NCBI GenBank assembly: GCA_027493775.1
Contig: JAOSKE010000001.1
Coordinates: 741,651 to 805,650 of the forward strand
Length of the DNA: 64,000 nt
Source: Kiritimatiellia bacterium
GTDB lineage: Bacteria > Verrucomicrobiota > Kiritimatiellia > CAIVKH01
Reading direction: 5' to 3'
The notes beneath the pieces were generated by a model, which had not been told where the DNA came from, searched no databases, and saw nothing but the letters and a program-made list of their open reading frames with translations. Positions 21,990 to 64,000 of the stretch are shown here, in pieces (the first letter of the stretch is position 1; each line of letters begins with the position of its first letter). Made by a program: the position numbers and the translations under genes.

Positions 21990-22176
21990 TTTTGCCCGAC
22001 AAAATGCAGTCAGCGAAAAGGCGAAAAAATCAGGAGAAATGGAAAAATGGGGTCAGATAGCATGAAAGGCGGTTAGATCTCCGTATTGACGGATATCGGT
22101 TTTTCTTCGCGCAATATGATGTTAGCGCCCCGCCCCTTCCCGGAGCGCGAGGGGGTCGGATGGATGTTCAGATGCC

Positions 22177-24875: not shown

Positions 24876-24902
24876 GAAAAGTCTCCGTGACGCGGCTGTA
24901 TC

Positions 24903-26213: not shown

Positions 26214-26462
26214 ATGGCACTAAGAGCCTATCCGAAAATTCATCATTTGACAGTTTTCGTGCGCTGAGGTTGTCGAGGTCGGCGTTTCATCTGCAAGCAC
26301 GTCGTTGACAAGATCGTCCATTCGACGGTCTCGCCCTTCGTGAAGGCCAGCGCTTCGGCCAATGCGTTGAGCGCCATTCGGGTCAGCCCTCAGCGGTCTA
26401 TTGGTTGTCTATTGCGGTCTATTGGGGTCGCGTCTAGACATTTGGTTCCGCTGAAAAACCCC

Positions 26463-26666
26463 CTACTTGCGGATGCGCCCTTTTGGTTTGGCGGGCTGCG
26501 TTCGGATAAGGTGAAGTTCATGGCGGTCGAGTAGTTCCCACTCGACTTCTTCACCGCCCCCCAAGCCGATGGCGGCGGCCAGCGGAATGGGGATGTTGAC
26601 GTAAAGGCGAACCTTCACGCCCTTGGATCGAATAGCCTGCACTTTTAATGGATAAGTTGTTGTCAT
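26463..26666 (-). CDS. Small AbrB/MazE-like (swapped-hairpin) protein, a passenger ORF inside the IS, divergent from the transposase.
   Basis: 67 aa. MTTTYPLKVQAIRSKGVKVRLYVNIPIPLAAAIGLGGGEEVEWELLDRHELHLI is AbrB-like. An identical ORF sits in copy B with one substitution. Confidence 0.35.
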   Translation of the reverse strand: MTTTYPLKVQAIRSKGVKVRLYVNIPIPLAAAIGLGGGEEVEWELLDRHELHLIRTQPAKPKGRIRK

Positions 26667-26713
26667 TTCGATACGCTATCTGATAGACTAGCTATTAGCA
26701 AGAGGAAATTATC

Positions 26714-28366
26714 ATGAGTCTTCCGCCTGTCCAGCAACAACGAAGTCTCTTTGAGGTCAACGTGCAATTCGCGGGCCTGTTCAAGTCGGCGCCAGCGAAT
26801 CGCTTTGGCTTCTTCAGCGACACGATCATGCCGCAACTGCGCGAACTGCGCCCGCAACTTGAAGCGATGTATTGCGCGGACAATGGCCGCCCCGCCGAGG
26901 AACCCTCGCGGATGTTGGCCGTGTTGATCTTGCAATTCATGGAGGGACTGCCCGATCGCAAGGCGGTGGAGGCATGCACCTATGATCTGCGATGGAAGAT
27001 GGCGCTATGGATGGAAACGGATGAAGCGGCCTTTCACGCCACCAGCTTGGTGAAGTTTCGCAATCGGCTCCTGGAGCACAACCTCGTCGAGATCGGATTT
27101 GACGCCGTGCTCCAAGCCATGCGCAAGGCGGGTTATCTCAAGGCCCATAAAGCGCAGCGTCTGGACTCGACGCATGTCATCGGTTTGGTCAGCCACATGA
27201 GCCGATTGGAATGCGTTCGAGAGGCCATGCGGCTGGCGATGGAAGTATTGGCGGAGTTGCCCGAAAGCACACGTCCTGGATCATGGTCCCTGTGGTGGGA
27301 ACGGTATGTGCAGAGCGCCTTGGACTTCAAAACGGATGTAGAGACGCTCAAGCAGAAGATGACTCAGGCGGGCGAGGACGCCCGCGCGATCTTGGCATGG
27401 ATCGAGACGCAGGTTGATGCGGTCAAAAGCATGAAGTCGGTGAGTGTTTTACGGCGGGTGTACGAGGAAAACTTTCAACAAGAAGTGGGCGGTCAGACCG
27501 AGCAGACCCACTCGCGACCGTCCGGTGCGGTATATAATCCGCACGACCCGGATGCGCAGTGGAGCGCCAAGGGGACTATCGCTGGCAAGAACAAGGAGTG
27601 GGTGGGTTACAAAGCCCAAATCGCGGAGACTCTGCCAAGCGCGAAGCCGGAGATGAAGGCGCCCACCGACGCGGTAATCACCGCCATGGTCACCCAACCA
27701 GCCATAACGAGCGATCACGGATCGATCTCGGATGTGGAAGAGGAGTGGAAGCGCGAAGATTTGGACAAGCCGAAAGAGCTTTATGTGGATGGCGGCTATA
27801 TCTCCGGGGAGGCGCTGGCCGATGCGGGGCGTGAAGAGCGCGAGATTCATGGCCCCGTTCAACCGGCCCCGAAGCGCGGCGACCGCTTCAGCGCTGAGAG
27901 TTTTGACGTGGACATCGATCAGCGGGTGGCGATCTGCCCGGCCCGCCATGCCAGCACCAACTGCAGTCGCCTCGATGAAGTCAGTGGTAAGATCCACTAC
28001 CGCTTCGAATGGAATAACCATCTCTGCCAAGCGTGTGAGCTTCGCAGCCGTTGCCTGGGAGCCAACCAACGCCATCGGACGCTACTGGTGGGTCAGTATC
28101 ATTCACACATTCAGGCCCGTCGCCGCGAAATGAAAACGGGGGCGTTCAAAGAGCGGATGCACAAACGCAATGGGGTGGAAGGAACGATCAGCGAGCTAAA
28201 AAGAGGCTACGGACTGAGGCGGTGTCGGTATCGAGGGTTGATAAAAACCAGTTTGCAAAACTACCTCATTGGGGCCGCCTGCAACATCAAGCGGTGGGCC
28301 CGCCGCTTGGCCTGGGAAGCGCTTGGAAATGATGAGATCGGAATAGATCAAGCAGTCAGGGCGTAA
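26714..28366 (+). CDS. IS5/IS1182-family DDE transposase (550 aa).
   Basis: The C-terminal KRNGVEGTISELKRGYGLRRCRYRGLIKTSLQNYLIGAACNIKRW is the DDE_Tnp_1_6 signature. A long helical N-terminal domain is also present. Confidence 0.85.
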   Translation: MSLPPVQQQRSLFEVNVQFAGLFKSAPANRFGFFSDTIMPQLRELRPQLEAMYCADNGRPAEEPSRMLAVLILQFMEGLPDRKAVEACTYDLRWKMALWMETDEAAFHATSLVKFRNRLLEHNLVEIGFDAVLQAMRKAGYLKAHKAQRLDSTHVIGLVSHMSRLECVREAMRLAMEVLAELPESTRPGSWSLWWERYVQSALDFKTDVETLKQKMTQAGEDARAILAWIETQVDAVKSMKSVSVLRRVYEENFQQEVGGQTEQTHSRPSGAVYNPHDPDAQWSAKGTIAGKNKEWVGYKAQIAETLPSAKPEMKAPTDAVITAMVTQPAITSDHGSISDVEEEWKREDLDKPKELYVDGGYISGEALADAGREEREIHGPVQPAPKRGDRFSAESFDVDIDQRVAICPARHASTNCSRLDEVSGKIHYRFEWNNHLCQACELRSRCLGANQRHRTLLVGQYHSHIQARRREMKTGAFKERMHKRNGVEGTISELKRGYGLRRCRYRGLIKTSLQNYLIGAACNIKRWARRLAWEALGNDEIGIDQAVRA

Positions 28367-28595
28367 TACGCCATCCAAAAGAACGAAGGCGCGGGCAAAA
28401 ATGAGCAATCGAACGAATACAGTATGGCAATGCGCATGCCACCCCGCACGTTACGTATGTGTTGTGGCGAAGCGACTGCATATAAGAATGCAGGTCTGTA
28501 AGTTTTGTTGAGCGATGAGTTTTTTAAAGAGGGGTTTTTCAGCAGAACCGAATGTCTAGACTTGACCCCAACTGCTCCCCCAACTGCTCCCCAAC

Positions 28596-28899
28596 TGCTG
28601 GTTTGCAAAATTACCTCATTGGGGCTGCCTGCAACATCAAGCGGTGGGCCCGCTGCATGGCCTGGGAAGCGCTTGGAAATGATGAGATGGGAATAGATCA
28701 AGCAGTCAGGGCGTAATACGCCATCCAAAAGAACGAAGGCGCGGGCATAAATGAGCAATCGAACGACTACAGTATGGCAATGCGCATGCCACCCCGCACG
28801 TTACGTATGTGTTGTGGCGAAGCGACTGTATATAAGAATGCAGGCCTGTGAGCTTTTTTGAGCGATGAGATTTTTGAAAGAGGGTTTTTCAGCAGAACC
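28596..28899 (+). mobile_element. Partial extra copy of the IS 3' end (transposase tail plus right end) between copies A and B.
   Basis: 28596..28716 repeats the last roughly 40 codons of the transposase (…LQNYLIGAACNIKRWARCMAWEALGNDEMGIDQAVRA*). The tail ends in GGGTTTTTCAGCAGAACCGAATGTC, abutting the left end of copy B. Confidence 0.5.
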
Positions 28900-28925
28900 G
28901 AATGTCGGTTCTGCTGAAAAACCCC

Positions 28926-29129
28926 CTACTTGCGGATGCGCCCTTTTGGTTTGGCGGGCTGCGTTCGGATAAGGTGAAGTTCATGGCGGTCGAGTAGTTC
29001 CCACTCGACCTCTTCACCGCCCGCCAAGCCGATGGCGGCGGCCAGCGGAATGGGGATGTTGACGTAAAGGCGGACTTTCACGCCCTTGGATCGAATGGCT
29101 TGCACTTTTAATGGATAAGTTGTTGTCAT
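28926..29129 (-). CDS. Small AbrB/MazE-like passenger protein, copy B.
   Basis: Differs from 26463..26666 by G to A at one position (…IGLAGGEEV…). Confidence 0.35.
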   Translation of the reverse strand: MTTTYPLKVQAIRSKGVKVRLYVNIPIPLAAAIGLAGGEEVEWELLDRHELHLIRTQPAKPKGRIRK

Positions 29130-29176
29130 TTCGATACGCTATCTGATAGACTAGCTATTAGCAAGAGGAAATTATC

Positions 29177-30826
29177 ATGAGTCTTCCGCCTGTCCAGCAA
29201 CAACGAAGTCTCTTTGAGGTCAACGTGCAATTCGCGGGCCTGTTCACGTCAGCGCCAGCGGATCGCTTTCGCTTCTTCAGCGACACGATCATGCCGCAAC
29301 TGCGCGAACTGCGCCCGCAACTTGAAGCGATGTATTGCGCGGACAATGGCCGCCCCGCCGAGGAACCCTCGCGGATGTTGGCCGTGTTGATCTTGCAATT
29401 CATGGAGGGACTGCCTGATCGCAAGGCGGTGGAGGGATGCACCTATGATCTGCGATGGAAGATGGCGCTATGGATGGAAACGGATGAAGCGGCCTTTCAC
29501 GCCACCAGCTTGGTGAAGTTTCGCAATCGGCTCCTGGAGCACAACCTCGTCGAGATCGGATTTGACGCCGTGCTCCAAGCCATGCGCAAGGCGGGTTATC
29601 TCAAGGCCCATAAAGCGCAGCGTCTGGACTCGACGCATGTCATCGGTTTGGTCAGCCACATGAGCCGATTGGAATGCGTTCGAGAGGCCATGCGGCTGGC
29701 GATGGAAGTATTGGCAGAGTTGCCCGAAAGCACACGTCCTGGATCATGGTCCCTGTGGTGGGAACGGTATGTGCAGAGCGCCTTGGACTTCAAAACGGAT
29801 GTAGAGACGCTCAAGCAGAAGATGACTCAGGCGGGCGAGGACGCCCGCGCGATCTTGGCATGGATCGAGACGCAGGTTGATGCGGTCAAAAGCATGAAGT
29901 CGGTGAGTGTTTTACGGCGGGTGTACGAGGAAAACTTTCAAGAAGTGGGCGGTCAGACCGAGCAGACCCACTCGCGACCGTCCGGTGCGGTATATAATCC
30001 GCACGACCCGGATGCGCAGTGGAGCGCCAAGGGGACTATCGCTGGCAAGAACAAGGAGTGGGTGGGTTACAAAGCCCAAATCGCGGAGACTCTGCCAAGC
30101 GCGAAGCCGGAGATGAAGGCGCCCACCGACGCGGTAATCACCGCCATGGTCACCCAACCAGCCATAACGAGCGATCACGGATCGATCTCGGATGTGGAAG
30201 AGGAGTGGAAGCGCGAAGATTTGGACAAGCCGAAAGAGCTTTATGTGGATGGCGGCTATATCTCCGGGGAGGCGCTGGCCGATGCGGGGCGTGAAGAGCG
30301 CGAGATTCATGGTCCCGTTCAACCGGCCCCGAAGCGCGGCGACCGCTTCAGCGCTGAGAGCTTTGACGTGGACATCGATCAGCGGGTGGCGATCTGCCCG
30401 GCCCGCCATGCCAGCACCAACTGCAGTCGCCTCGATGAAGTCAGTGGTAAGATCCACTACCGCTTCGAATGGAATAACCATCTCTGCCAAGCGTGTGAGC
30501 TTCGCAGCCGTTGCCTGGGAGCCAACCAACTCCATCGGACGCTACTGGTGGGTCAGTATCATCCACACATTCAGGCCCGTCGCCGCGAAATGAAAACGGG
30601 GGCGTTCAAAGAGCGGATGCACAAACGCAATGGGGTGGAAGGAACGATCAGCGAGTTAAAAAGAGGCTACGGACTGAGGCGGTGTCGGTATCGAGGGTTG
30701 ATAAAAACCAGTTTGCAAAATTACCTCATTGGGGCCGCCTGCAACATCAAGCGGTGGGCCCGCCGCTTGGCCTGGGAAGCGCTTGGAAATGATGAGATCG
30801 GAATAGATCAAGCAGTCAGGGCGTAA
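29177..30826 (+). CDS. IS5/IS1182-family DDE transposase, copy B (549 aa).
   Basis: Near-identical to 26714..28366, with a one-codon indel (ENFQEVGG versus ENFQQEVGG). Confidence 0.85.
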   Translation: MSLPPVQQQRSLFEVNVQFAGLFTSAPADRFRFFSDTIMPQLRELRPQLEAMYCADNGRPAEEPSRMLAVLILQFMEGLPDRKAVEGCTYDLRWKMALWMETDEAAFHATSLVKFRNRLLEHNLVEIGFDAVLQAMRKAGYLKAHKAQRLDSTHVIGLVSHMSRLECVREAMRLAMEVLAELPESTRPGSWSLWWERYVQSALDFKTDVETLKQKMTQAGEDARAILAWIETQVDAVKSMKSVSVLRRVYEENFQEVGGQTEQTHSRPSGAVYNPHDPDAQWSAKGTIAGKNKEWVGYKAQIAETLPSAKPEMKAPTDAVITAMVTQPAITSDHGSISDVEEEWKREDLDKPKELYVDGGYISGEALADAGREEREIHGPVQPAPKRGDRFSAESFDVDIDQRVAICPARHASTNCSRLDEVSGKIHYRFEWNNHLCQACELRSRCLGANQLHRTLLVGQYHPHIQARRREMKTGAFKERMHKRNGVEGTISELKRGYGLRRCRYRGLIKTSLQNYLIGAACNIKRWARRLAWEALGNDEIGIDQAVRA

Positions 30827-31152
30827 TACGCCATCCAAAAGAACGAAGGCGCGGGCAAAAATGAGCAATCGAACGAATACAGTATGGCAATGCGCATGCC
30901 ACCTCGCACGTTAAGTATGTGTTGTGGCGAAGCGACTGCATATAAGAATGCAGGTCTGTGAGCTTTTTTGAGTGATGAGTTTTTTAAAAGAGGGGTTTTT
31001 CAGCAGAACCGAATGTCTAGACTTGACCCCAATTCCCCTACTGCCGCGACCCCAATTCCCCGCCAATTCCCCGCGTAGCACGAGCGCCCGTCAGAACGCG
31101 AGTAGGTCCGAGGCCCGCACCAGTGGGCCGAGGTAACATGACATGCCAACGA

Positions 31153-35108: not shown

Positions 35109-35141
35109 GAGTTATTTTTCGGGTCTATTGGGGGTCTATTC

Positions 35142-35566
35142 GGGTCGAGTAAAGACATTTTCTATTTAGCGCCTTCTCGCAATACAGATAAACGCATACT
35201 CGTGACGAATAGGTAGCTGAGGCGGGCAAGTGAGGTCGGCCAATACGGTGCTGTTGTAGGCGGTTGTTCAAACGAGTTGTCACAGGGTCTGACGACGAGA
35301 GCGAAGCGAGGAGGGACTCAGGGAACGAGTCGAAGCCACAGCAAGAAAGTTCATACGGTTGCAACATGTCTAGTTTTCCACGATTTTGCGCCATAATACA
35401 GCCCGCAAACGAACCACGCAGTTAACCATCAACCCTCCCCAGATCGTTGTCAACACGCCTTTTGCCTTGGCCAAAATCACCGATCATGAGAATTGATCCC
35501 CACTCCCCCGTTTTGATTTTTGGACGCGAGAACACAAACCAAATGTCGAATGTCTAGACTTGACCC
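35142..35566. repeat. REP/BIME-like non-coding element (about 425 bp) bounded by the inverted 19-bp palindromic termini GGGGTCRAGTCTAGACATT … AATGTCTAGACTTGACCCC. Copy 1.
   Basis: Left terminus at 35142-35159 (degenerate: gggtcgagtaaagacatt). Right terminus at 35548-35566. The interior is conserved with copies at 55022-55446 and 63017-63393. GGTCTATTGGGG direct repeats precede the left end. Confidence 0.55.
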
Positions 35567-35998
35567 CAACTGCTCTAACTGCTCCGGTGTCTTATTTAAA
35601 GCGTTGTTCAAATATTTTATACATACCTCAATTAGCTTTAGTCGCTCATCTTGCGCATCTACTAAACACGTGCTCAACTCTGCAGTGGCAGAGGTAGGCC
35701 ACACCTTTAATACACCACGAACATTCGGGTTCAAATAGACCTCAATACGACGCATCATGACATCACCGCTGATCCAAGTTCCAAATATAGAACACAAAAA
35801 CCTAAACAGATAGCTGCCAGCGTATTCACGCAAATATGAACCGCGCATCTCTCTTACAAAATAACCGCGACCATACGCGAGCAGGGTTATCTGTTCTTGT
35901 GGTGTTGTCGCAGAATCAACGCCTACATCCTGCCATCCATGGCGCTTCTTAATAAATTTTATATTGCTAATCTCATTCACCCGGCTCACGCCCTTCAT
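35477..35998 (-). CDS. Immunity-protein candidate for the CT3 Rhs toxin. Reads through its normal stop because of a 1-bp deletion relative to the paralogue at 55470..55877.
   Basis: The first 134 aa ([28 protein letters not shown]…CIKYLNNA) are identical to the 135-aa copy at 55470..55877. An A-run (tttaaag versus tttaaaag) shifts the frame, so the ORF extends into the REP-like element. The gene is AT-rich compared with the Rhs core. Confidence 0.5.
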
Positions 35999-36811: not shown

Positions 36812-36866
36812 CGCGATACCGAAATTTATCCGCGTCCCAAGAGGTTCATGAATAATCCGGGCTAAC
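36812..36866. mobile_element. Solo right-end fragment of the IS4-superfamily element (as at 54020-54075).
   Basis: CCGAAATTTATCCGCGTCCCAAGAGGTTCATGAATAATCCGGGCT matches the right terminus of 52383..54075. Confidence 0.45.
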
Positions 36867-36905
36867 CGCCTTTCATGCTATCTGACCCCTATTCCCTGAC
36901 CCCAA

Positions 36906-52085: not shown

Positions 52086-52124
52086 AATATTTTTGAGCAG
52101 GGGTTTTTCAGCAGAACCAAATGT

Positions 52125-52345
52125 CTAGACGCGACCACAACTGTTGCACGTGGTGCGAAAAGTCATTCCGGCTGAAAAGGGAAAGCAGTTGGCTGAACAA
52201 ACTGGCCTTGTGTGCGCTCATCTTGCGGGGTCTCCTGGTCGGGCTTGTTGGATATTTTCACCTTCAGCCGACCTCCAGAGCCCTTTTCTAAAAACTTGTT
52301 TTGGCTGCCTAGCCGAATATTTTCTTCAGCATCACGCAAGATGCG
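52125..52345 (-). pseudogene. 5' fragment of an IS4-family element (same family as 58120..59475), truncated by insertion of the IS4-superfamily element at 52383.
   Basis: About 95% identical to 59270-59480, including the transposase start (MSAHKASLFSQLLSLF…) and the upstream IS end (…CCCTTTTCTAAAAACTTGTTTTGG…). Confidence 0.5.
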
Positions 52346-54358: not shown

Positions 54359-55000
54359 TTACGGCTGCGGAAGCAGGTTTTGGCATGCTGTTCTACAGTT
54401 GTGGCCGATCAGATTATACTCCGGCTGCATAGCCGTATATGCCTCGGCACGTATGTCGGCTGCTGTTGCCTCCTCGGGACTAACCGGATGAGCAACATAG
54501 TCATCACTGGGAAGCAACTGTTTGTCGAGTGGCAGAGGGGGGCCGTAAGTAGCCAGACCGGGAACCCAATCAAGCAGCGTCGAGAGTGTTAAGTCATTCG
54601 CTGGCCGGAAGTCGAATCTGCGATAGCCATCTGGCGTCGGAATTAGCAGATATGTGTGATTAATTCCTTCTGGATTCATTCCAGTGTAGACGGCATTGCC
54701 TTCTCCCAATCCCAACGAATCCACCCAATTGACCGGGTCGCCATGACAGTAGAGATAGAGGTTCGCTTGGCCACCTCCGAATAGGATGGGGTCTTTGGCT
54801 AGCCATCTTCCAGTCATCGGATCATAATCCCGATACCCGAACCACGTGAGACCCGTATCCGGGTCGTAGAGCCCCACCCGCAAACCCGAACGGCTGAAAG
54901 CCCGGATTTGTGTCCTGTAGGACGTTCCCCCATTCGTCGTAGTCCATCCGCTGCGCAACCGCGCCGGTCTGGGCATCCACAACCAGCCGCACGCTGCCAA
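54359..55000 (-). CDS. Orphan Rhs C-terminal fragment with a distinct CT4 toxin domain. One frame break.
   Basis: The core …[58 protein letters not shown] is followed by a roughly 120-aa CT ending …[20 protein letters not shown]. The upstream part ([47 protein letters not shown]) is in another frame (ORF 54822..55073), with an extra C in the run at 54872-54875. Confidence 0.6.
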
Positions 55001-55021
55001 GATGATCCGTAACGTCTATTC

Positions 55022-55446
55022 GGGTCGAGTCTAGACATTTTACAGTTAGCGTCTTCTCGCAATACAGATGCACGTATATTCCGGGACGAACAGGTCGCTG
55101 AGGCGGGCGAGTGAGGTCGGTTAATGCGGTGCTGTTGTAAGCGGTTGTTCGAGCAAATTGTCACAGGGGTTAGTGACGAGAACGAGGCGAGGGACTCAGA
55201 GAGGTAGTCGAAACCACAGCAGGAAAGTTCATTCGGTTGCATCGCATCTACCCTTCCACGATCTCGCGTCATAATTCAGCCCGCAAACGAACCACGCAGT
55301 TAATCATCAACCCTCCGCCGCCTTAGGTCAACACGTCTTTTGTCTTGGCCAAAATCACCGATCATGAGAATTGATCCCCACTCCCCCGTTTTGATTTTTG
55401 GACGCGAGAACACAAACCAAATGTCGAATGTCTAGACTTGACCCCA
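55022..55446. repeat. REP/BIME-like element, copy 2 (GGGTCGAGTCTAGACATT … AATGTCTAGACTTGACCCC).
   Basis: Termini at 55022-55039 and 55428-55446. The interior is about 90% identical to 35142-35566. Confidence 0.55.
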
Positions 55447-55469
55447 ACTGCTCTAACTGCTCCGGTGTC

Positions 55470-55877
55470 TTATTTAAAAGCGTTGTTCAAATATTTTATA
55501 CATACCTCAATTAGCTTTAGTCGCTCATCTTGCGCATCTACTAAACACGTGCTCAACTCTGCAGTGGCAGAGGTAGGCCACACCTTTAATACACCACGAA
55601 CATTCGGGTTCAAATAGACCTCAATACGACGCATCATGACATCACCGCTGATCCAAGTTCCAAATATAGAACACAAAAACCTAAACAGATAGCTGCCAGC
55701 GTATTCACGCAAATATGAACCGCGCATCTCTCTTACAAAATAACCGCGACCATACGCGAGCAGGGTTATCTGTTCTTGTGGTGTTGTCGCAGAATCAACG
55801 CCTACATCCTGCCATCCATGGCGCTTCTTAATAAATTTTATATTGCTAATCTCATTCACCCGGCTCACGCCCTTCAT
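55470..55877 (-). CDS. Immunity-protein candidate for CT3 (intact copy, 135 aa).
   Basis: [26 protein letters not shown]…[10 protein letters not shown]. It lies immediately downstream of the CT3-encoding Rhs fragment. Confidence 0.5.
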   Translation of the reverse strand: MKGVSRVNEISNIKFIKKRHGWQDVGVDSATTPQEQITLLAYGRGYFVREMRGSYLREYAGSYLFRFLCSIFGTWISGDVMMRRIEVYLNPNVRGVLKVWPTSATAELSTCLVDAQDERLKLIEVCIKYLNNAFK

Positions 55878-57862
55878 TTTTTGGGGTTAGTTCATTTTCA
55901 ATTGCCTCTCGTGCGGTCTGCTCTAGAAGTGCTTTAATCGGATGAGCCAACAGCGTCTTTAGATTAGGCCCATCATTAATAAAATCTGCAATACCCTCAG
56001 AAGCGGGCCCCTCGCCCAGAAGTGTGGTCACAATCTTCCTGATAAGCTCTTCGCTTGCCTGAATCGCTTGCCCGGGAACCTTCAGTAGTTCTTTCGCTTG
56101 TTCTGCGAGTTGGGAGGCGACGTTGTCGTAAGCATCTACAAGATGCTCCCAAACCGCACCTGCAAAATTATTAAGCGTATATTCTCCAGCTTTCCAAGCC
56201 GCATCGCGTGGGTTCTCTCCCAACCCAAGCGGGTCGATATAATTGACCGGATCCCCATGACAGTACAGATACAGATTTGCCTGTCCGCCCCGAAACAGTA
56301 TGGGGTCTTTGGCCAGCCATCTCCCAGTCATCGGATCATAATCCCTGTAGCCAAATCGGACCAAGCCCGTGCCAGGGTCATACATACCTCCCGCGAACCC
56401 AAATGGCTGAAATCCCGGATTTGTGTCCTCCAGAACATTGCCCCATTCGTCGTAGTCCATCCGCTGCGCAACGGCGCCGGTCTGGGCATCCACAACCAGC
56501 CGCACGCTGCCAAGATGATCTGTAATGATCCGATATGTCGTTCCCGACCGCACCATATAGTCCGGCACATTCACTCGCGTCGCGTACACGAACCGGGACT
56601 TCACGCTTCCATCCGCATTCAACTCCGCAATCGGCTTCAGGAAGTCCTGATAGACCAGCCGTTGCACGGTCGTGCCATTCACACTCTTGGCGATGCGCCG
56701 CCCCAGAGGGTCAACGCTGTACCGAATCGCAGAAACCGTGGAGCTGACGGCAAGCAGGCTGCCCCGAGCGTCATAGCGGTATGCGGTTCCGACTCCGCCA
56801 ACGCTCTTGTTCGTCAGCGTGCCACGGTCATCATGCTGGTAGGTCGTCGCCCCGTAGCTCAACAGGCGATCCTGCGCGTCGTAGTGACCCACAAGCGACG
56901 ACCCGCTCAGTATGGCATTTGTGCGGTTCCCATTTGCGTCGTATTGATATTTTGCGCGCAGCGAACCATTGGTATGCACCTCAATCAGCCGCCCCGCCGC
57001 ATCATAGGAATAGGTGTATAGGTTCGTCTGATTCTGAATGCGCTCCACCCGGCTGGTCATCCGCCACATTGCATCGTACCCATAATCGAATGACAGCAGA
57101 TTTGTTCCGCCAAAATCACTGGCGGATGCCTGTAGCTCCCCAAATTTGCTAATTTGTCGCATATCGCTCACATCGCCCAGAACCGTGTTCGTCACAAACC
57201 CACTTGCGGCATCCCGATTCAGCCGCAATTGACCGGCATTGGTCAACAATAGATCAAGATCATAGCCGTATCCAATACCATCACCATTGAGCGTAATCTG
57301 GCTCAAGCGGAGGTCCGGACTCCATGCATACCCTACCCGTCCCGTGACAGAGCCACCCCCAGGTCACGTTTGTCAGCAGGCTGCCATCCCAGTCTAAAGC
57401 CAGAGAGGACCCGCTTGTGGCAACGATGGAAATCGGGTGCCCGTTTGCGTAGGCGACCGCAATCCGGTTCTCCGGCCACCGGACCTGACTCGCCTGCCCC
57501 GCCGCATTGTACTGGTTGGTGATGGTCGCCCCGCCCGGCAGCCGTATGCTCGTCACCTGGCGGCGCGCATTCCACGTGAGGAGAAGATTCGTGTCCACAC
57601 CAGCCAAGCCGGGGGCCGAATAGCGACCCAGAAGACCAACGTTGTTGTAGTCCATCTGATGTTCAGCCTTATCGGGCGGCCGTACTCCGCCCAGGTTGGA
57701 AGACTTGTCGTACCGCAGTCCGATGGTCTTCGCATCCGGTTGCAGCAGATTCGTGACCCGACCGGCGGGATCGGAATCCAGCCGGTACGACTGCAGCAAA
57801 CTGTTGGTGAGCGCGCCCCAAAATCCATTCGTTGTATAACCGAGTCCAAAAGCACGACGCAC
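55852..57862 (-). CDS. Rhs fragment (about 670 aa of YD repeats and core) ending in the CT3 toxin. One frame break at a C5 run.
   Basis: ORFs 57281..57862 and 55852..57306 abut. The paralogue 60837..63230 reads straight through the same region with cccc (62233-62236) where this copy has ccccc (57356-57360). Core …[35 protein letters not shown]…, then CT3 identical to 35973..36692. Confidence 0.7.
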
Positions 57863-57876
57863 AGCTCCAGTGTGTT

Positions 57877-58066
57877 TTGGGGTCGAGTCTAGACATTGTA
57901 CAGTTCGCCGCTTGTCTTTGAGATGGCCTCTCGATTGCGACCGCGCGACGTCACATGGTGCCGGACGCCTTCAATGTCAATTCTCAATGGCCTGCTCATA
58001 CCGATCTTGTATTCATTCTCGACACGTCGGCGCAAGCCACAATGTCGAATGTCTAGACTTGACCCT
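57877..58066. repeat. REP/BIME-like element, copy 3 (190 bp), whose interior is an inverted 5' fragment of the RAYT gene seen at 63440-63520.
   Basis: Termini GGGGTCGAGTCTAGACATT (57877-57895) and AATGTCTAGACTTGACCC (58047-58065). The reverse complement of the interior (…caagatcggtatgagcaggccattgagaattgacattgaaggcgtccggcaccatgtgacgtcgcgcggtcgcaatcgagaggccatc…) matches 63405-63500. Confidence 0.5.
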
Positions 58067-58119: not shown

Positions 58120-59475
58120 GGGCCCTATTCCCTGAAAAAAGCATCGTTGGGTCGTTTGCGCAAAACCGATCCCCCCCCTTTTATGAAGGACATGGGTTCT
58201 GCTGTCCAAGATCGAGTTCCCAGAACTCAGCTTGAACGAAAGGGGGCGGAAACGGCGGTGTTTCATAGGGACGCTCGATCCAGACCCACAAGTCCCGGTA
58301 GGTGAAAAGGTTCAGCCGCAGCAGCGCCACGAGGTTGGAGAGGTGCCAGCCGCATTTGGATTTGAACTGCAGGTACTTGATCAGGAGTATGGCGATCAAT
58401 GCTGTCCAAATCTGGATATGCACCGCGTTGGCGGAGGTGCCGACGAAGGTCTTGATGCGGAGATTCTGCTTGAGGTCCTTGAAGAACAGTTCGATCTGCC
58501 AGCGGGCTTTGTAGATCTGGGCGATGGTGGATGCGGCCAGATGCAGATTGTTGGTGAGAATCACCAGTTCCTCCTGTTTGTCTTCCCGCCAGACCGTGAT
58601 CCGGCGGTACTGCCTTTTGATCCGCCGTCCAGCCTGAAAGACGTGAAACTCCCCGATCTCATCGGCGCGGACGGGTGAGTCGGCAGGCACCTCGCGCGAC
58701 TCGGTGCGATACCAGTCGGCGTGCTTCTTCATCCGTGTCACGAAGAACACGCCCTCGGCGCTCCAGCGCTCAAAAAGGTGGTAATCCACATAGGCGCGGT
58801 CCATGACCACGATACTGCCCTTGGGCAACGGTAAACCCCGAGCAGTCTTTAACTCGTGCTCACGACCCTCGGTGATATGCGCAAAGACCGGAAGACAGCC
58901 GTCATGGTCCAAAAGAAGGTGCATCTTTACCGCCCCTTTGGTCTGGCGGTATTTCGCCCAGTCGAATGCGGAAGCACACAGGTCAATCACCGTGGCATCG
59001 AGGCTCATCAGTTTGTTTTTGAAGCGGAATGGCTTGCCTGGGGCGACCGCCCGACAGGTTCCAAGCAGATCGTAGAAGAGCCGTTGAAAAAGCTGCCAGG
59101 GGCGATGTTGGTTCGCGTAGGCCAGCGTCGAGCGCGCCGGACCGACACTCATCCCCAGATGGGATAGTCGGCCTTCACAACATTGCAGACCCTGCGTGAT
59201 CTCCCGGAGACTGCGACTGTTGGTGAGCTGGCAGAAGAGCATGGCCACAAACTGATCCCAGCAACTGAAGCCCTTCGATCGGTACTCGGCATTCACCTCG
59301 CGCACGTGGTGCGAAAAGTCATTCCGGTTGAAAAGGGAAAGCAGTTGGCTGAACAGACTGGCCTTGTGTGCGCTCATCTTGCGGGGTCTCCTGGTCGGGC
59401 TTGTTGGATATTTTCACCTTCAGCCTACCTCCAGACCCCGTTTCTAAAAACTTGTTTTGGACACTACTGTCTCAA
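58120..59475 (-). mobile_element. IS4-family insertion sequence (boundaries approximate).
   Basis: Contains the transposase 58181..59377. The 5' flank sequence is shared with the truncated copy at 52125-52345. Confidence 0.55.
58181..59377 (-). CDS. IS4-family DDE transposase (398 aa).
   Basis: …VVMDRAYVDYHLFERW…, …LVILTNNLHLAASTIAQIYKARWQIELFFKDLKQNL… matches the IS4 YREK signature. Confidence 0.85.
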   Translation of the reverse strand: MSAHKASLFSQLLSLFNRNDFSHHVREVNAEYRSKGFSCWDQFVAMLFCQLTNSRSLREITQGLQCCEGRLSHLGMSVGPARSTLAYANQHRPWQLFQRLFYDLLGTCRAVAPGKPFRFKNKLMSLDATVIDLCASAFDWAKYRQTKGAVKMHLLLDHDGCLPVFAHITEGREHELKTARGLPLPKGSIVVMDRAYVDYHLFERWSAEGVFFVTRMKKHADWYRTESREVPADSPVRADEIGEFHVFQAGRRIKRQYRRITVWREDKQEELVILTNNLHLAASTIAQIYKARWQIELFFKDLKQNLRIKTFVGTSANAVHIQIWTALIAILLIKYLQFKSKCGWHLSNLVALLRLNLFTYRDLWVWIERPYETPPFPPPFVQAEFWELDLGQQNPCPS

Positions 59476-59656
59476 CATGACGGGCCACTATGGCCGCGCC
59501 TTCAATTGCTTGATGGGCATTTTAATCACGCTTCGGCGTGAATGCCGCATCTACGGGCTCTAACCGCCTTTCATGCTATCTGACCCCTTTAGTCTCTGAC
59601 CCCTTTAGTCTCCGGGAGAAACGGGATACAAGAACCGATCCCATTCGTCCGGCACG

Positions 59657-60836: not shown

Positions 60837-63230
60837 TCACTTGAGGCGAGGAGTTGATGTTACCAAGGGATATGGCTCGAAGTTGATTAAATCATTTACT
60901 TCAATCAAATGATCCGCAACTGGTCCGTCACGCCAGTTGTCTACGACATCATCGATCTGATCAGGAACAGTTAACAGCTCCCAGATACCAAATATGACGA
61001 GTACAGCACCACCACCGATTACCAAAGGAAGACTTCCGATGGCCGCACCGCCACCAGCTACAATGCCTCCAAGCGCAGAAACAATTCCCTGCCATAGCAG
61101 CCCATTGGGATCAATATAGTTAATTGGATCCCCGTGGCAATAGAGGTACAGGTTGGCTTGGCCTCCTTCAAACAAGATAGGGTCTTTGGCCAGCCACCTC
61201 CCAGTCATCGGAGCATAATCGCGGTATCCGAACCGCGTCAGACCCGTGTCTGGGTCGTATAAACCTCCCGCAAACCCGAACGGCTGGAATCCCGGATTGG
61301 TGTCCTGCAACACGTTCCCCCATTCGTCGTAGTCCATCTGCTGCGCAACCGCGCCGGTCTGGGCATCCACAACCAGCCGCACGCTGCCAAGATGATCTGT
61401 AATGATCCGATATGTCGTTCCAGAACGCACCATATAATCCGGTACATTCACTCGCGTAGCGTACACGAACCGGGACTTCACGCTTCCATCCGCATTCAAC
61501 TCCGCAATCGGCTTCAGGAAGTCCTGATAGACCAGCCGTTGCACGGTCGTGCCATTCACACTCTTGGCGATGCGCCGCCCCAGAGGGTCAACACTGTACC
61601 GAATCACAGAAACCGTGGAGCTGACGGCAAGCAGGCTGCCCCGAGCGTCATAGCGGTATGCGGTTCCGACTCCGCCAACGCTCTTGTTCGTCAGCGTGCC
61701 ACGGTCGTCATACTGATATGTCGTCGCCCCGTAGCCCAACAGGCGATCCTGCGCGTCGTAGTGGCCCACAAGCGACGACCCGCTCAGTATGGCATTTGTG
61801 CGATTCCCATTTGCGTCGTATTGATATTTCGCGCGCAGCGAACCATTGGTATGCACCTCAATCAGCCGCCCCGCCGCATCATAGGAATAGATGTATAGGT
61901 TCGTCTGATTCTGAATGCGCTCCACCCGGCTGGTCATCCGCCACATTGCATCGTACCCATAATCGAATGACAGCAGATTGGTTCCGCCAAAATCACTGGC
62001 GGATGCCTGTAGCTCCCCAAACTTGCTAATTTGTCGCATATCGCTCACTTCGCCCAGCACCGTGTTCGTCACAAACCCACTTGCCGCATCCCGATTCAGC
62101 CGCAATTGACCGGCATTGGTCAACAATAAATCAAAATCATAGCCGTATCCAATGCCATCACCATTGAGCGTAATCCGGCTCAAGCGGAGGTCCGGACTCC
62201 ATGTATAGCCTACCCGTCCCGTGACAGAGCCACCCCAGGTCACATTTGTCAGCAGGCTGCCATCCCAGCCTAAAGCCAGAGAGGGCCCGCTTGTGGCAAC
62301 GATGGAAATCGGGTGCCCGTTTGCGTAGGCGACCGCAATCCGGTTCTCCGGCCACCGGACCTGACTCACCTGCCCCGCTGCATTGTACTGGTTGGTGATG
62401 GTCGCCCCGCCCGGCAGCCGTATGCTCGTCACCTGGCGGCGCGCATTCCACGTGAGGAGAAGATTCGTGTCCACCCCAGCCCAGCAGGGTGCCGAATAGC
62501 GACCCAGAAGACCAACGTTGTTGTAGTCCATCTGATGTTCAGCCTTATCGGGCGGCGTCACCCCGCTCAGATTGGAGGACTTGTCGTACCGCAGTCCGAT
62601 GGTCTTCGCATCCGGTTGCAGCAGATTCGTGACCCGACCGGCGGGATCGGAATCCAGCCGGTACGACTGCAGCAAACTGTTGGTGAGCGCGCCCCAAAAT
62701 CCATTCGTTGTATAACCGAATCCAAAAGCACGACGCACACCTCCAGTGCCGATCGCGAACTGCTGCAACCGACCGTGAACATCATATGCAACATCGATGG
62801 GATACAACCCCGGTAGCTCTATCCGCTCCGCGCGCCCGTTTGCATTATAGATTACCCTGCGGGTTCTGCCCTCGGGACTCGTCAGCGACGCCATTCGATT
62901 CGACGCCTGATACGACGCTACATACGCTGGTCGGTCATTAATGCTGAAGACATTCGTGAAGGAAACGAGGCTTAACACGTCACCGGGATCCGACAACGAG
63001 GCGGCTCGGGATCTATTGGGGTCGAGTCTAGACATTTTATATTTAGCGCCTTCTCGCAATACAGATAAACGCATATTCGGGACGAATAGGTAGCTTAGGG
63101 GGTTGTTCGAGCAAGTTGTCACTGGGTTTGGTGACGAGAATAAGGCGATGGACTCAGAGTAGGAGTCGAAGCCACAGCAAGAAAGCTCATTCTGTTGCAA
63201 CATGTCTAGCTTCCCACGATCTTGCGCCAT
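60837..63230 (-). CDS. Rhs fragment (about 700 aa of YD repeats and core) with a glycine-zipper, membrane-type CT5 toxin domain. The ORF initiates inside the REP-like element and reads across its terminus.
   Basis: The N-terminal roughly 60 aa (MAQDRGKLDMLQQNELSCCGFDS…[12 protein letters not shown]) are encoded by element 63017-63393; MSRLDP is the translated palindrome AATGTCTAGACTCGACCCC. The Rhs body is about 97% identical to 55852..57862. The C-terminus …[71 protein letters not shown]… is a GxxxG-rich hydrophobic tip. Confidence 0.7.
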   Translation of the reverse strand: MAQDRGKLDMLQQNELSCCGFDSYSESIALFSSPNPVTTCSNNPLSYLFVPNMRLSVLREGAKYKMSRLDPNRSRAASLSDPGDVLSLVSFTNVFSINDRPAYVASYQASNRMASLTSPEGRTRRVIYNANGRAERIELPGLYPIDVAYDVHGRLQQFAIGTGGVRRAFGFGYTTNGFWGALTNSLLQSYRLDSDPAGRVTNLLQPDAKTIGLRYDKSSNLSGVTPPDKAEHQMDYNNVGLLGRYSAPCWAGVDTNLLLTWNARRQVTSIRLPGGATITNQYNAAGQVSQVRWPENRIAVAYANGHPISIVATSGPSLALGWDGSLLTNVTWGGSVTGRVGYTWSPDLRLSRITLNGDGIGYGYDFDLLLTNAGQLRLNRDAASGFVTNTVLGEVSDMRQISKFGELQASASDFGGTNLLSFDYGYDAMWRMTSRVERIQNQTNLYIYSYDAAGRLIEVHTNGSLRAKYQYDANGNRTNAILSGSSLVGHYDAQDRLLGYGATTYQYDDRGTLTNKSVGGVGTAYRYDARGSLLAVSSTVSVIRYSVDPLGRRIAKSVNGTTVQRLVYQDFLKPIAELNADGSVKSRFVYATRVNVPDYMVRSGTTYRIITDHLGSVRLVVDAQTGAVAQQMDYDEWGNVLQDTNPGFQPFGFAGGLYDPDTGLTRFGYRDYAPMTGRWLAKDPILFEGGQANLYLYCHGDPINYIDPNGLLWQGIVSALGGIVAGGGAAIGSLPLVIGGGAVLVIFGIWELLTVPDQIDDVVDNWRDGPVADHLIEVNDLINFEPYPLVTSTPRLK

Positions 63231-63393
63231 AATTCAGCCCGCAAACAAAACACGCGGTTAATCATCAGCCCTCCGCCGCTCGCTGTCAACACAGACCTAA
63301 ACCACCGATAACAAGAATTCATCCCCATTCCCCCGTTTTGATTTTTGGACGTGAGAGCACAGGCGCAAATGTCGAATGTCTAGACGTGACCCC
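63017..63393. repeat. REP/BIME-like element, copy 4, directly adjacent to the RAYT gene.
   Basis: Termini GGGGTCGAGTCTAGACATT (63017-63035) and AATGTCTAGACGTGACCCC (63375-63393). The interior is conserved with copies 1 and 2. Confidence 0.55.
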
Positions 63394-63462
63394 ATCTGCT
63401 CTGAAAACAAGATCGGCATGAGCAGACCATTGAGAATCGACATTGAAGGTGGGTGGATCATG

Positions 63463-64000
63463 TGACGTCGCGCGGTCACAATCGCGAGGCCATCTATCGA
63501 GACACAAAGGATCGAGCGCATTTCCTCGATCTGCTGGAACAGCTGAGCGAGCAGCATCGCATAGAGATTCATGCGTACGTGTTGATGACGAACCATTATC
63601 ATCTTTTAGTGCGTAGCCCTGAAGCCAACCTGAGCCGGGCGCTTCAATGGCTGAATGTCAGCTACAGCATCTGGTGGAATCGTCGCCACGGGCGGTGTGG
63701 CAGTGTGTTCCAGGGCCGATTCAAGGCGGCGCTTGTTGAGGGCGGGGCTTGGCTTCTGTCGCTGAGTCAGTATATCCATTACAATCCCGTGGCCGTGAAG
63801 GGATTGGGCTTGAGTAAGCAGGGCAAGGCGCTTGAGGGACGCGGCTGGGCGACGCCGACGGCGGAAATGGTCGCGATGAGATTGAAGGGATTACGAGAAT
63901 ATCGCTGGAGTTCCTATCCGGCGTATGTCGGCTATGCAAAGCCGCCAGCGTGGTTGAATACCAAAGAAGTGCTGGCCCGAGTGAAGGGCGGAAGGCGGGG
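63463..64000 (+). CDS. Y1 HuH transposase of the REP-associated type (RAYT / TnpA_REP, IS200-like superfamily). Partial: runs off the window end.
   Basis: GTG start. …IEIHAYVLMTNHYHLLVRSPEANLSRALQWLNVSYSIWWNRRHGRCGSVFQGRFKAALVEGGAWLLSLSQYIHYNPVAVKGL…YRWSSYPAYVGY… shows the HuH motif (HYH), the GxxWQGRFK block and the YIHxNPV block characteristic of RAYTs such as E. coli YafM. No stop before 64000. Confidence 0.7.

What the first reader, a model, noticed from the sequence alone, without database searches (positions are those of the whole stretch)
63017..64000. A RAYT-type Y1 transposase sits beside a family of palindrome-bounded elements that punctuate the Rhs toxin cassettes
A partial gene at the window end has all the RAYT signatures (HAYVLMTNHYHLL, GSVFQGRFKAALV, YIHYNPV). 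It starts 70 bp from the right terminus of a 377-bp non-coding element bounded by the inverted 19-mer GGGGTCRAGTCTAGACATT. The core GTCTAGAC is itself a palindrome and the full 2x19-mer can form a hairpin. Four such elements lie at 35142-35566, 55022-55446, 57877-58066 and 63017-63393. Half-sites flank both IS5/IS1182 insertions at 26425, 28550, 31011 and 52113. The 190-bp copy at 57877-58066 carries, in inverted orientation, the first roughly 100 bp of the RAYT gene plus its upstream leader. This is REP/BIME-like behaviour: a Y1 enzyme acting in trans on hairpin repeats. But the elements are several hundred bp long with a conserved interior, and every full copy sits exactly at the 5' boundary of an orphan Rhs CT/immunity module. 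I think this looks like a RAYT-mobilised element family that has become the junction, and possibly the cassette-exchange scar, of a polymorphic-toxin array. I know of no established description of such an arrangement.
Basis: partly seen in the sequence, partly recalled or inferred. Interest (0 to 1): 0.8.

Follow-up and report, generated by a model that had tools for sequence, protein, structure and literature searches.

The report
Tyrosine-transposase element family (TIRtron) with mini-derivatives
The repeated 19-base motif is the terminal inverted repeat of an already described but little-studied class of mobile element that encodes a RAYT-like tyrosine transposase; the window holds a broken copy of that gene and four non-coding derivatives scattered through an insertion-sequence-rich Rhs toxin locus, so the find is real but largely ordinary.

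Summary
The 19-mer occurs 12 times (0.01 expected by chance). It bounds elements at 35141-35567, 55021-55445, 57879-58066 and 63018-63393. A Y1/HUH transposase gene starts at 63419.

The interpretation needs correcting in five ways.
- The 19-mer is not a REP-like hairpin. It is the outer part of the terminal inverted repeat of a "TIRtron", an element encoding a TIRYT (TIR-associated tyrosine transposase; Di Nocera 2013, Quentin 2018 subclass 2.1). In Patescibacteria, Saccharibacteria and Verrucomicrobiota the same 18-mer encloses a 313-344 aa homologue, whose stop codon lies inside the right repeat.
- The window's gene is a frameshifted remnant that has lost its own upstream repeat.
- The 190-bp element is an internal-deletion derivative. 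The roughly 400-bp ones are MITE-like non-autonomous relatives.
- The IS1182 copies are unrelated DDE elements that inserted into these repeats, so the "half-sites" are split repeats.
- Three element ends do abut 5'-truncated Rhs fragments. These look like rearrangement breakpoints in a region also holding IS4-like, IS1380 and ISL3 elements, not a dedicated cassette-exchange device.

Host: a Kiritimatiellia bacterium. Verdict: new member of a known kind, of modest interest.

The parts
63419..64000 (+). 5' part (residues 1-193 of about 340) of a TIRYT-class Y1/HUH tyrosine transposase gene. It is frameshifted after codon 13, lacks its own upstream TIR, and is cut by the window end.
   Evidence: Pfam Y1_Tnp 45 bits. 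Two tblastn segments in different frames. 69% identical to the TIR-bounded L014 protein. HUH (H60-Y61-H62) and Y119 are invariant.
63018..63393 (.). Non-coding MITE-like element of 376 bp bounded by inverted TIRs (63018-63036 and 63375-63393). Conserved short extensions lie outside the TIRs: TCTATT on the left and ATCTGCTC on the right.
   Evidence: No protein similarity inside. The ends pair when folded as single-stranded DNA.
57879..58066 (-). 188-bp internal-deletion derivative of the autonomous element. It consists of TIR, leader, first 26 codons of the transposase, last codons (YNV*) and TIR.
   Evidence: A population variant (L028) has an IS1182 inside its right TIR and a 142-bp deletion next to its left end.
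55021..55445 (.). MITE-like element of 425 bp. It lies between the immunity-like gene of one Rhs module and the truncated start of the next orphan Rhs fragment.
35141..35567 (.). MITE-like element of 427 bp with a degenerate left TIR. It is a copy of 55021-55445 within a 1.5-kb segmental duplication (35134-36656 matches 55014-56535).
26424..28569 (+). IS1182-family DDE insertion sequence (core 26444-28549, transposase 26714-28366) flanked by the outer 20 nt of two split TIRs. It is not a member of the tyrosine-transposase family.
   Evidence: NCBIfam IS1182 268 bits, Pfam DDE_Tnp_1_6 and DUF772. The core terminus GGTTCYGCTGAAAAACCCC occurs without the 19-mer in 35 of 45 metagenome flanks.
28601..31030 (+). 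A partial IS1182 3' end (28601-28899), then a second full IS1182 core (28907-31010) with GAATGTC on both sides, then a TIR half (31012-31030).
52090..52138 (+). Solo, more diverged IS1182-type right end (87% to the 28521-28574 end) joined to a TIR half (52120-52138). An ISL3 element lies next to it.
60837..63017 (-). 5'-truncated Rhs/YD-repeat fragment with its C-terminal toxin region. Its truncation point abuts the left end of the 63018 element.
   Evidence: Pfam TEN_YD-shell and RHS_repeat. The ORF runs into the element.
55852..57872 (-). 5'-truncated, frameshifted Rhs fragment, 94% identical to 61107-62748. Its truncation point abuts the left end of the 57879 element.
54359..55012 (-). Short orphan Rhs fragment (from the TDHLGSVRL motif onward) plus a C-terminal toxin region. 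It starts at the left end of the 55021 element.

Best explanation
The 19-mer is the outer part of the roughly 26-bp terminal inverted repeat (TIR) of a TIRtron. A TIRtron is a mobile element of about 1.1 kb made of TIR, a short leader, a tyrosine (Y1/HUH) transposase gene of about 340 codons, and a second TIR. The gene's stop codon lies inside the downstream TIR.

This Kiritimatiellia window holds no intact copy. It has:
- a gene remnant at 63419 onward, frameshifted and without its upstream TIR;
- one internal-deletion derivative of 188 bp;
- three MITE-like elements of about 400 bp that keep only the TIRs and short asymmetric extensions.

Most likely mechanism (inferred, not shown): an intact TIRYT elsewhere in the genome mobilises these elements in trans by single-strand cleavage and ligation, as in IS200/IS605 and RAYT/REP systems. 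The two TIRs would be recognised either paired as a fold-back stem in single-stranded DNA or as duplex by the C-terminal DnaA-like helix-turn-helix domain. Cleavage would fall some 7-9 nt outside the TIRs, which would explain the conserved but unlike extensions at the two ends.

The IS1182 copies are separate DDE elements that inserted into TIRs at repeat positions 14-20. The Rhs association reflects insertion, followed by deletion or recombination, in a disposable region rich in repeats.
For: Shown
- The same 18-mer bounds complete genes for 313-344 aa Y1 proteins in L010, L014 and L019, with the stop codon (AAT GTC TAG) in the right TIR.
- 8 of 23 genome loci with the 18-mer have a homologous gene or fragment alongside.
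- The window protein is 69% identical to the TIR-bounded L014 protein, and HUH and the catalytic Tyr are invariant.
- More distant homologues carry variant TIRs that start GGGGTCAC. This fits the published GGGGWSAS tip.
- Relatives have a weak C-terminal Bac_DnaA_C match, as in Quentin's subclass 2.1.
- The 57879 element keeps codons 1-26 and YNV* between TIRs.
- A single TIR does not fold, whereas two juxtaposed TIRs do (-18.5 kcal/mol, z = -10).
- The extensions GTCTATT (left) and AACTRCTC (right) recur in five to six independent contexts.
- A 100%-identical population variant has a 142-bp deletion ending 9 nt outside the TIR.

IS1182 as an intruder
- Its core terminus occurs with unrelated flanks in 35 of 45 cases.
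- L048 shows a 7-bp duplication of TIR positions 14-20.
- In L028 the IS joins the inner remainder of a TIR.
Against: - No intact TIRtron was seen in this organism. The best database homologue is only 69% identical, and the source genome is not in the genome collection.
- No empty site or excision product was found, so mobility and the exact element boundaries are inferred.
- No biochemical work on TIRYTs turned up in the papers searched, so the single-strand mechanism is by analogy.
- The interior of the 400-bp elements has no detectable relation to the gene. Their descent from a TIRtron rests on the ends alone.
- Two IS1182 copies are flanked on both sides by outward TIR halves. That needs an extra step, such as two insertions plus recombination, or insertion into a TIR dimer.
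Confidence: 0.78

Rival explanations
1. The 19-mer is the terminal inverted repeat of the IS1182-family element itself. On this view the short elements are ordinary MITEs mobilised by its DDE transposase, and the Y1 gene is an unrelated neighbour.
For: - A complete IS1182 (26424-28569) is bounded by the 19-mer in inverted orientation, and the inverted symmetry runs on for about 39 bp.
- The window's IS1182 ends other than the left end of the second copy, and the ends of L025-L027 other than L027's right end, carry the 19-mer.
- 10 of 45 related IS ends in metagenomes carry a GGGGTC-type segment at the same spacing.
Against: - 35 of 45 related IS ends have unrelated flanks directly at GGTTCYGCTG.
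- In L027 and L028 one side of the IS is the inner continuation of a TIR, not an inverted copy.
- L048 has a 7-bp target duplication lying inside a TIR.
- The 19-mers flanking IS copies that are 98.6-99.9% identical differ at positions 7-8.
- The 18-mer bounds Y1 genes in three phyla with no IS1182 gene inside the element.
Confidence: 0.08
2. This is a classical REP/BIME system. Each 19-mer would be a REP hairpin, the gene a domesticated single-copy RAYT, and the elements BIME-like clusters.
For: - The protein's best NCBIfam match is REP_Tyr_transpos, and database sources name homologues RayT.
- 68-bp TIR dimers resembling REPINs occur in a Planctomycetia genome.
- In L031 the gene is flanked by TIR dimers.
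Against: - A single 19-mer has no stable hairpin, and there is no GTAG tag.
- All scores fall below the RAYT family cut-off, at 56-74 bits against 80.
- The gene lies inside the repeats and its stop codon sits in the repeat.
- Homologues often sit on contigs of 1-1.4 kb, as multicopy elements do.
Confidence: 0.05
3. The elements are a functional junction for exchanging Rhs toxin/immunity cassettes. They would act as recombination sites selected for shuffling orphan modules.
For: - Three element left ends abut truncated Rhs fragments.
- The 1.5-kb duplication runs from an element end into the conserved Rhs core.
- Population variants L025, L026 and L028 again place TIR ends at Rhs-locus breakpoints.
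Against: - No module border in the first array (36.7-44 kb) carries an element.
- Elements and TIR halves also sit at non-Rhs sites: 26.4 kb and the left side of 35141.
- IS4-like, IS1380, ISL3 and IS1182 elements share the region.
- The start codon inside the TIR is in frame with only one of three fragments.
- The same TIR family occurs in phyla and contexts with no Rhs.
- Orphan modules with retained core fragments are the usual Rhs layout without any such element. This last point rests on general knowledge of Rhs loci, not on a test here.
Confidence: 0.07

Closest known systems
TIRtron / TIRYT (TIR-associated tyrosine transposase; Di Nocera, De Gregorio & Rocco 2013, PMC3733652; subclass 2.1 of TnpA-Y1 in Quentin et al. 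2018, PMC6006769)
   Same: - RAYT-like Y1/HUH protein of about 340 aa.
- The gene is enclosed by long terminal inverted repeats that start GGGGTCA/GGGGTCG (published tip GGGGWSAS).
- The repeats also occur as moderately abundant non-coding families and as dimers.
- Relatives have a C-terminal DnaA-like helix-turn-helix domain.
   Different: - This TIR lineage has a GTCTAGAC palindromic core and is near-identical across distant phyla.
- The copy in the window is degenerate.
- Not mentioned in the passages of the two papers that I read: the conserved asymmetric extensions, the tandem junction repeats and the IS1182 insertions.
REPtron: RAYT/TnpA-REP with REP, BIME and REPIN sequences
   Same: - Related catalytic domain.
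- Non-autonomous repeats presumably mobilised in trans.
- Inverted repeat pairs can form long hairpins, as REPINs do.
   Different: - REPs are short units that each fold on their own and carry a GTAG tag. The 19-mer does not fold alone.
- RAYTs are flanked by REPs outside the gene, and the REP-associated ones are reported to be typically single-copy. This last point is from my own knowledge of the literature, not from the papers read here.
IS200/IS605 (IS608, ISDra2) single-strand 'peel and paste' transposition
   Same: - HUH plus a single catalytic tyrosine.
- The two ends are unlike beyond the recognised structure.
- No target-site duplication is apparent.
- This is the model from which the proposed mechanism is borrowed.
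   Different: - TnpA there is about 130-150 aa.
- The ends carry separate subterminal hairpins, not terminal inverted repeats.
- The NCBIfam IS200 score here is only 16 bits.
Insertion sequences that target repeated palindromes (REP-targeting IS, mentioned in PMC3733652; IS1272 of the IS1182 family, which targets inverted repeats without duplications, PMC5678879)
   Same: An IS1182-family element sits inside inverted-repeat sequences belonging to another repeat family.
   Different: - Here the insertion point is fixed at TIR positions 14-20.
- At least two cases show a 7-bp duplication.

Membership tests
TIRtron / TIRYT | Encodes a Y1/HUH tyrosine transposase related to RAYTs (HUH motif and catalytic Tyr present) | tested here: met
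   Pfam Y1_Tnp 45 bits. NCBIfam REP_Tyr_transpos is the best hit. H60-Y61-H62 and Y119 are invariant in the alignment.
TIRtron / TIRYT | The gene is enclosed by long terminal inverted repeats rather than REP hairpins | tested here: inconclusive
   - In the window the gene lacks its upstream TIR and its 3' end lies beyond the window.
- The feature is met in close relatives (L014 at 69% identity, L010, L019, L023).
- It is also met in the 57879 deletion derivative of the same lineage.
TIRtron / TIRYT | The TIR tip fits GGGGWSAS | tested here: met
   63375 copy GGGGTCAC, an exact fit. Other copies read GGGGTCAA, GGGGTCGA or GGGGTCGC, one mismatch each. Homologues L029 and L031 read GGGGTCAC.
TIRtron / TIRYT | C-terminal helix-turn-helix (Bac_DnaA_C / HTH_23 / HTH_28) domain of subclass 2.1 | not testable with these tools
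   The window ends at residue 193. Relatives P0003 and the L023 protein give sub-threshold Bac_DnaA_C hits (25.4 and 18.4 bits against a cut-off of 31.5).
REPtron (RAYT with REP/BIME) | The repeat unit is a short imperfect palindrome that folds on its own and carries a GTAG (or CGTC) tag | tested here: not met
   The 19-mer alone folds at -0.4 kcal/mol, z = -0.16, and the versions with flanks are no better. There is no GTAG at either end.
REPtron (RAYT with REP/BIME) | The protein reaches the curated RAYT family threshold | tested here: not met
   NCBIfam NF047646 scores 56.6 bits for the window fragment and 56-74 bits for full-length relatives, against a cut-off of 80.
IS200/IS605 | The TnpA matches the IS200 family profile, and the ends are subterminal hairpins without inverted repeats | tested here: not met
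   NF033573 scores 16-26 bits against a cut-off of 55. The ends are inverted repeats.
MITE (for the 376-427 bp elements) | Short, non-coding, bounded by the TIRs of an autonomous element, several copies | tested here: met
   Three long copies plus one more in L026. No protein similarity inside. The TIRs are shared with gene-bearing elements.
MITE (for the 376-427 bp elements) | Target-site duplications flanking each copy | tested here: not met
   No direct repeats at the element edges. Conserved unlike extensions are found there instead.
IS1182 family (for 26444-28549 and 28907-31010) | DDE transposase matching the family profile, with its own terminal inverted repeats | tested here: met
   - NF033551 scores 268 and 265.5 bits, just under the equivalog cut-off of 270, and is far the best hit. 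Pfam DDE_Tnp_1_6 and DUF772 also match.
- The core termini GGTTCYGCTGAAAAACCCC are conserved in 49 metagenome loci.

The most novel reading that the evidence does not exclude
Three things seen here are not mentioned in the passages of the two TIRYT papers I read, and they could jointly open up the mechanism of TIRYT elements.

1. A clade of IS1182 elements inserts specifically at positions 14-20 of TIRYT-type repeats in many unrelated environmental lineages. 22% of its ends show this, against 0.5% by chance.
2. TIRtron ends carry unlike conserved extensions of 7-9 nt, and often tandem copies of 'flank plus repeat tip'. Both point to offset, strand-specific cleavage.
3. In this Kiritimatiellia population the element ends are recent breakpoints, within sequence that is otherwise 100% identical. 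These breakpoints truncate and reshuffle Rhs toxin modules.

If all three hold, TIRYT elements would be active single-strand transposons with their own parasite IS and a measurable role in toxin-locus turnover.
Probability: 0.3. Interest if true: 0.5.

Novelty: new member of a known kind. Interest (0 to 1): 0.33.

Why it matters
TIRYT/TIRtron elements appear in only three papers of the searched library (two distinct works, one held in two versions), and those contain no biochemistry. This locus and its relatives offer four things:
- a very widely conserved repeat sequence;
- a clean deletion derivative that links gene and repeats;
- population variants suggesting recent activity;
- a second IS family that recognises the repeats.

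For annotation the practical lesson is twofold. These 19-mers should be masked as mobile-element ends. The Rhs 'orphans' beside them are products of rearrangement. Neither is evidence for a new toxin-cassette exchange system.

Tried and rejected
- **Extending the contig past 64000.** The exact-protein look-up of the nearby 213-aa gene returned only a 1-kb contig. The MalQ look-up returned nothing.
- **Finding the source genome.** It is not in the genome collection: no locus reproduces the window.
- **Metagenome scan with a conserved interior segment of the 400-bp element.** 0 hits.
- **Rfam scan of the whole window.** No family matched.
- **blastx of the element interiors against TIRYT proteins.** Nothing below E = 0.2.
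- **Sequence search of solved structures with a full-length relative.** No hit.
- **Search for an empty site by comparing L025 with L026.** The element sits at a breakpoint, not at a simple insertion.
- **Test of GAGYAGTT as a target motif at the Rhs junctions.** It is not adjacent in the uninterrupted Rhs copy.
- **Palindromic-target idea** (an IS inserted in CTAG of a 24-bp palindrome). Dropped: no intact palindrome exists in the window, and the IS core boundary lies at GGTTC.
- **An outward start codon in the repeat driving the orphan Rhs fragments.** It is in frame in only one of three cases.


Full report

Yes. GGGGTCRAGTCTAGACATT matches at 12 places with up to three mismatches, against 0.01 expected from shuffles. 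The GTCTAGAC core occurs 11 times against 0.21 expected.

Inverted pairs bound elements at 35141-35567, 55021-55445, 57879-58066 and 63018-63393. The three long ones align end to end.

A self-comparison adds two qualifications:
- 35134-36656 and 55014-56535 form one 1.5-kb segmental duplication (95.4% identity), so those two elements are copies by descent.
- 57921-58015 is an inverted 87% match to 63402-63495, the start of the gene at the window end.

The gene has the quoted motifs and hits Pfam Y1_Tnp (45 bits). Its reading frame breaks after codon 13 (…GGWIM*). Homologues align to 63418-63456 (residues 1-13) and, in another frame, to 63459-63995 (residues 15-193).

**2. What the 19-mer is.**

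One scan of representative genomes with GGGTCRMGTCTAGACATT found 23 loci. They come from Planctomycetia, Verrucomicrobiota, Kiritimatiellia, Victivallales, Patescibacteria, Saccharibacteria, Burkholderiales, Gammaproteobacteria and Muiribacteriota.

In L010 (2820-3843), L019 (43-1045) and L014 (283-1390), an inverted pair of the 18-mer encloses a single gene for a 313-344 aa protein. That protein begins MSRPLRI… and carries NHYHL and YIHxNPV. Its last codons and stop (AAT GTC TAG, '…NV*') lie inside the right repeat.

In total, 8 of the 23 loci have a homologous gene or gene fragment beside the repeat. The window protein is 69% identical to the L014 protein. HUH (H60-Y61-H62) and Tyr119 are invariant across the family alignment.

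Homologues at 57-65% identity (L029, L031) are enclosed by variant repeats, GGGGTCACGTCTTCACATT and GGGGTCACATCTCCACATT. The palindromic GTCTAGAC core is therefore specific to one lineage, while the GGGGTCA tip is general.

**3. This kind of element is already described.**

- Di Nocera et al. 2013 (PMC3733652) named RAYT-like genes flanked by long terminal inverted repeats 'TIRtrons' and their proteins 'TIRYTs'. [quoted passage not shown]
- Quentin et al. 2018 (PMC6006769) place most TIRYTs in subclass 2.1 of the TnpA-Y1 superfamily, which is marked by a C-terminal DnaA-like or HTH domain.

The data here fit both descriptions. Two relatives give weak Bac_DnaA_C matches at residues 278-321. Full-length relatives score 56-74 bits on NCBIfam's RAYT model (cut-off 80) and only 16-26 bits on the IS200 model.

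A single 19-mer has no hairpin of its own (-0.4 kcal/mol, z = -0.16). Only two repeats placed side by side pair (-18.5 kcal/mol, z = -10). The REP/BIME label therefore fails on its defining feature, and the TIRtron label fits.

**4. What the elements in the window are.**

The 57879-58066 element, read on the minus strand, consists of:
- TIR;
- a 48-nt leader;
- ATG plus 26 codons of the transposase;
- …TAC AAT GTC TAG within the other TIR.

It is a plain internal-deletion derivative of an autonomous element.

The elements of about 400 bp share the TIRs, including the inner ACATTYKACATTT part. They have no detectable coding relation to the gene and no Rfam match. They are MITE-like non-autonomous relatives.

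All four lie in the same orientation. Outside the TIRs they carry short conserved sequences that differ between the two ends:
- (G)TCTATT on the window-left side (GTGTTTT in 57879);
- AACTRCTC on the window-right side.

These extensions recur in independent contexts, including metagenome contigs L025 and L026. I found no target-site duplications.

The gene at 63419 is preceded by the right end of the 63018 element in the wrong orientation. Only 19 nt of the usual leader remain. It has lost its own upstream TIR as well as its reading frame.

**5. The IS1182 'half-sites'.**

The 550-aa proteins at 26714-28366 and 29177-30826 are IS1182-family DDE transposases. Their element's own termini are GGTTCYGCTGAAAAACCCC.

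A metagenome scan for that terminus gave 49 loci. In 35 of 45 distinct flanks the adjoining sequence is unrelated to the 19-mer. In 10 of 45, a GGGGTC-type segment starts exactly 19-20 nt outside the terminus, against 0.5% by chance.

Individual cases show what happened:
- In L048 the IS is flanked by a 7-bp duplication (GAAAATT) that corresponds to positions 14-20 of a TIR variant.
- The second IS copy in the window has GAATGTC on both sides.
- In L028 the IS joins GACATTCGACATTG, the inner continuation of the 57879 element's TIR.
- In L027 only one side is a TIR outer half.

So the IS is an intruder that inserts into TIRs at a fixed place. The 19-mers beside it are split TIRs.

Copies flanked by outward halves on both sides (26424-28569 and L025) need an extra step. 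That could be two insertions followed by recombination, or insertion into a TIR dimer. I could not tell which.

IS1272, another IS1182-family member, is reported to target inverted-repeat structures without target duplications (PMC5678879).

**6. The Rhs context.**

The host is a Kiritimatiellia bacterium: its MalQ is 85% identical to that of a Kiritimatiellae MAG. Rhs/YD-repeat genes lie on the minus strand.

The left ends of the 55021, 57879 and 63018 elements abut Rhs fragments truncated at three different points. The left neighbour of the 35141 element is a TSP3/LTD gene.

The same stretch holds other mobile DNA:
- an IS4-like element (58181-59377);
- an IS1380 element (52656-53864);
- an ISL3 element (50637-51950);
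- a solo IS1182 end.

Borders between Rhs modules in the first array (36.7-44 kb) carry no element.

Contigs from the same population, 98.8-100% identical to the window in the stretches they share with it, show further rearrangements at TIR ends:
- L028 has a 142-bp deletion (window 57728-57869) that ends 9 nt outside the TIR.
- In L025 an Rhs gene is cut at the position equivalent to 61892 by a TIR-IS1182-TIR unit.
- In L026 a copy of the 400-bp element abuts an immunity-like gene.

None of these is a simple insertion with a recoverable empty site.

I read this as mobile-element insertion followed by deletion and recombination in a repeat-rich, dispensable region. I do not read it as a dedicated exchange device. 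The ATG inside the TIR is in frame with only one of the three adjoining fragments.

**7. Mechanism.**

What is shown is the anatomy: the TIRs, the gene inside them, the unlike extensions, the absence of duplications, deletion derivatives, and population-level breakpoints at the ends.

What is inferred is as follows. By analogy with IS608 and with RAYT/REP systems, a TIRYT supplied in trans cleaves one strand a few nucleotides outside the TIRs and rejoins it. The two TIRs would be recognised either as a fold-back stem in single-stranded DNA or through the C-terminal helix-turn-helix domain.

The copy in the window is probably inactive.

**8. Verdict.**

- The REP/BIME framing, the reading of the IS1182 half-sites, the claim that no description exists, and the cassette-exchange idea are not supported.
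- Novelty: new member of a known kind.
- The by-products may interest people who work on mobile DNA. They are the IS1182 targeting of TIR positions 14-20, the tandem junction repeats, and the near-identical TIR across phyla.

Noticed in passing
window 26395-26423, 28570-28600, 31031-31075; also L008, L010, L014, L019, L023: The DNA just outside many TIRs consists of two or three tandem copies of a unit made of 8-10 nt of flank plus the TIR tip (for example CCCCAACTGCTC x3, or GGGGTCAATCTAG x3 in L019). 33% of TIR flanks have a repeat of at least 8 nt within 53 nt, against 4.7% of random windows. The cause is unknown; it may be a footprint of repeated cleavage and rejoining.
   Followed up: partly
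L036-L084 (metagenome loci); window 28900-28906 and 31011-31017; L048 8318-10320: An IS1182 clade with termini GGTTCYGCTGAAAAACCCC sits 19-20 nt inside GGGGTC-type TIRs in 10 of 45 independent flanks (0.5% expected). Two cases show a 7-bp duplication of TIR positions 14-20. This suggests targeted insertion into TIRYT repeats.
   Followed up: partly
window 28885-28925: A partial IS1182 right end and the left end of the next full copy are separated by only 7 nt (…CAGCAGAACC GAATGTC GGTTCTGCTG…). Together they form a near-perfect palindrome. This looks like a tandem-dimer or circle-type junction, or an insertion right beside an existing copy.
   Followed up: no
L010, L019 compared with window 63018-63036: The 18-nt TIR is identical between this Kiritimatiellia window and Patescibacteria/Saccharibacteria elements whose transposases are only 38-41% identical to the window's. 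Closer homologues (57-65% identical) have changed TIR cores.
   Followed up: partly
L002, L004, L011, L017, L018 (one Planctomycetia MAG): At least six copies of a 68-72 bp element made only of two inverted TIRs and an AT-rich spacer, rather like REPINs. No transposase gene lies within the fetched flanks.
   Followed up: no
L039 760-1300 (also L053, L070): An IS1182 5' portion, with a TIR outer half and tandem AGCAGCTAC repeats outside it, is truncated and followed directly by a TIRtron with a different TIR variant. The two element types appear to insert into or next to each other repeatedly.
   Followed up: partly
window 24902-25220 = 52389-52706 (97%); 52146-52304 = 59302-59460 (97%); 22045-22085, 36862-36903, 59552-59603: Further short repeats are shared between the IS-rich stretches. 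They are probably ends or fragments of the IS1380 and IS4-like elements. Not analysed.
   Followed up: no
window 31677-35108 and 44275-50403 (minus strand): Very large predicted proteins (1143 and 2042 aa) with bacterial TSP3 repeats, a lamin-tail domain and Laminin_G_3 domains flank the first Rhs array.
   Followed up: no
window 36906-37619 (minus strand): A CAAX/Rce1-like membrane protease homologue sits where an immunity gene would be expected, downstream of an Rhs C-terminal region.
   Followed up: no
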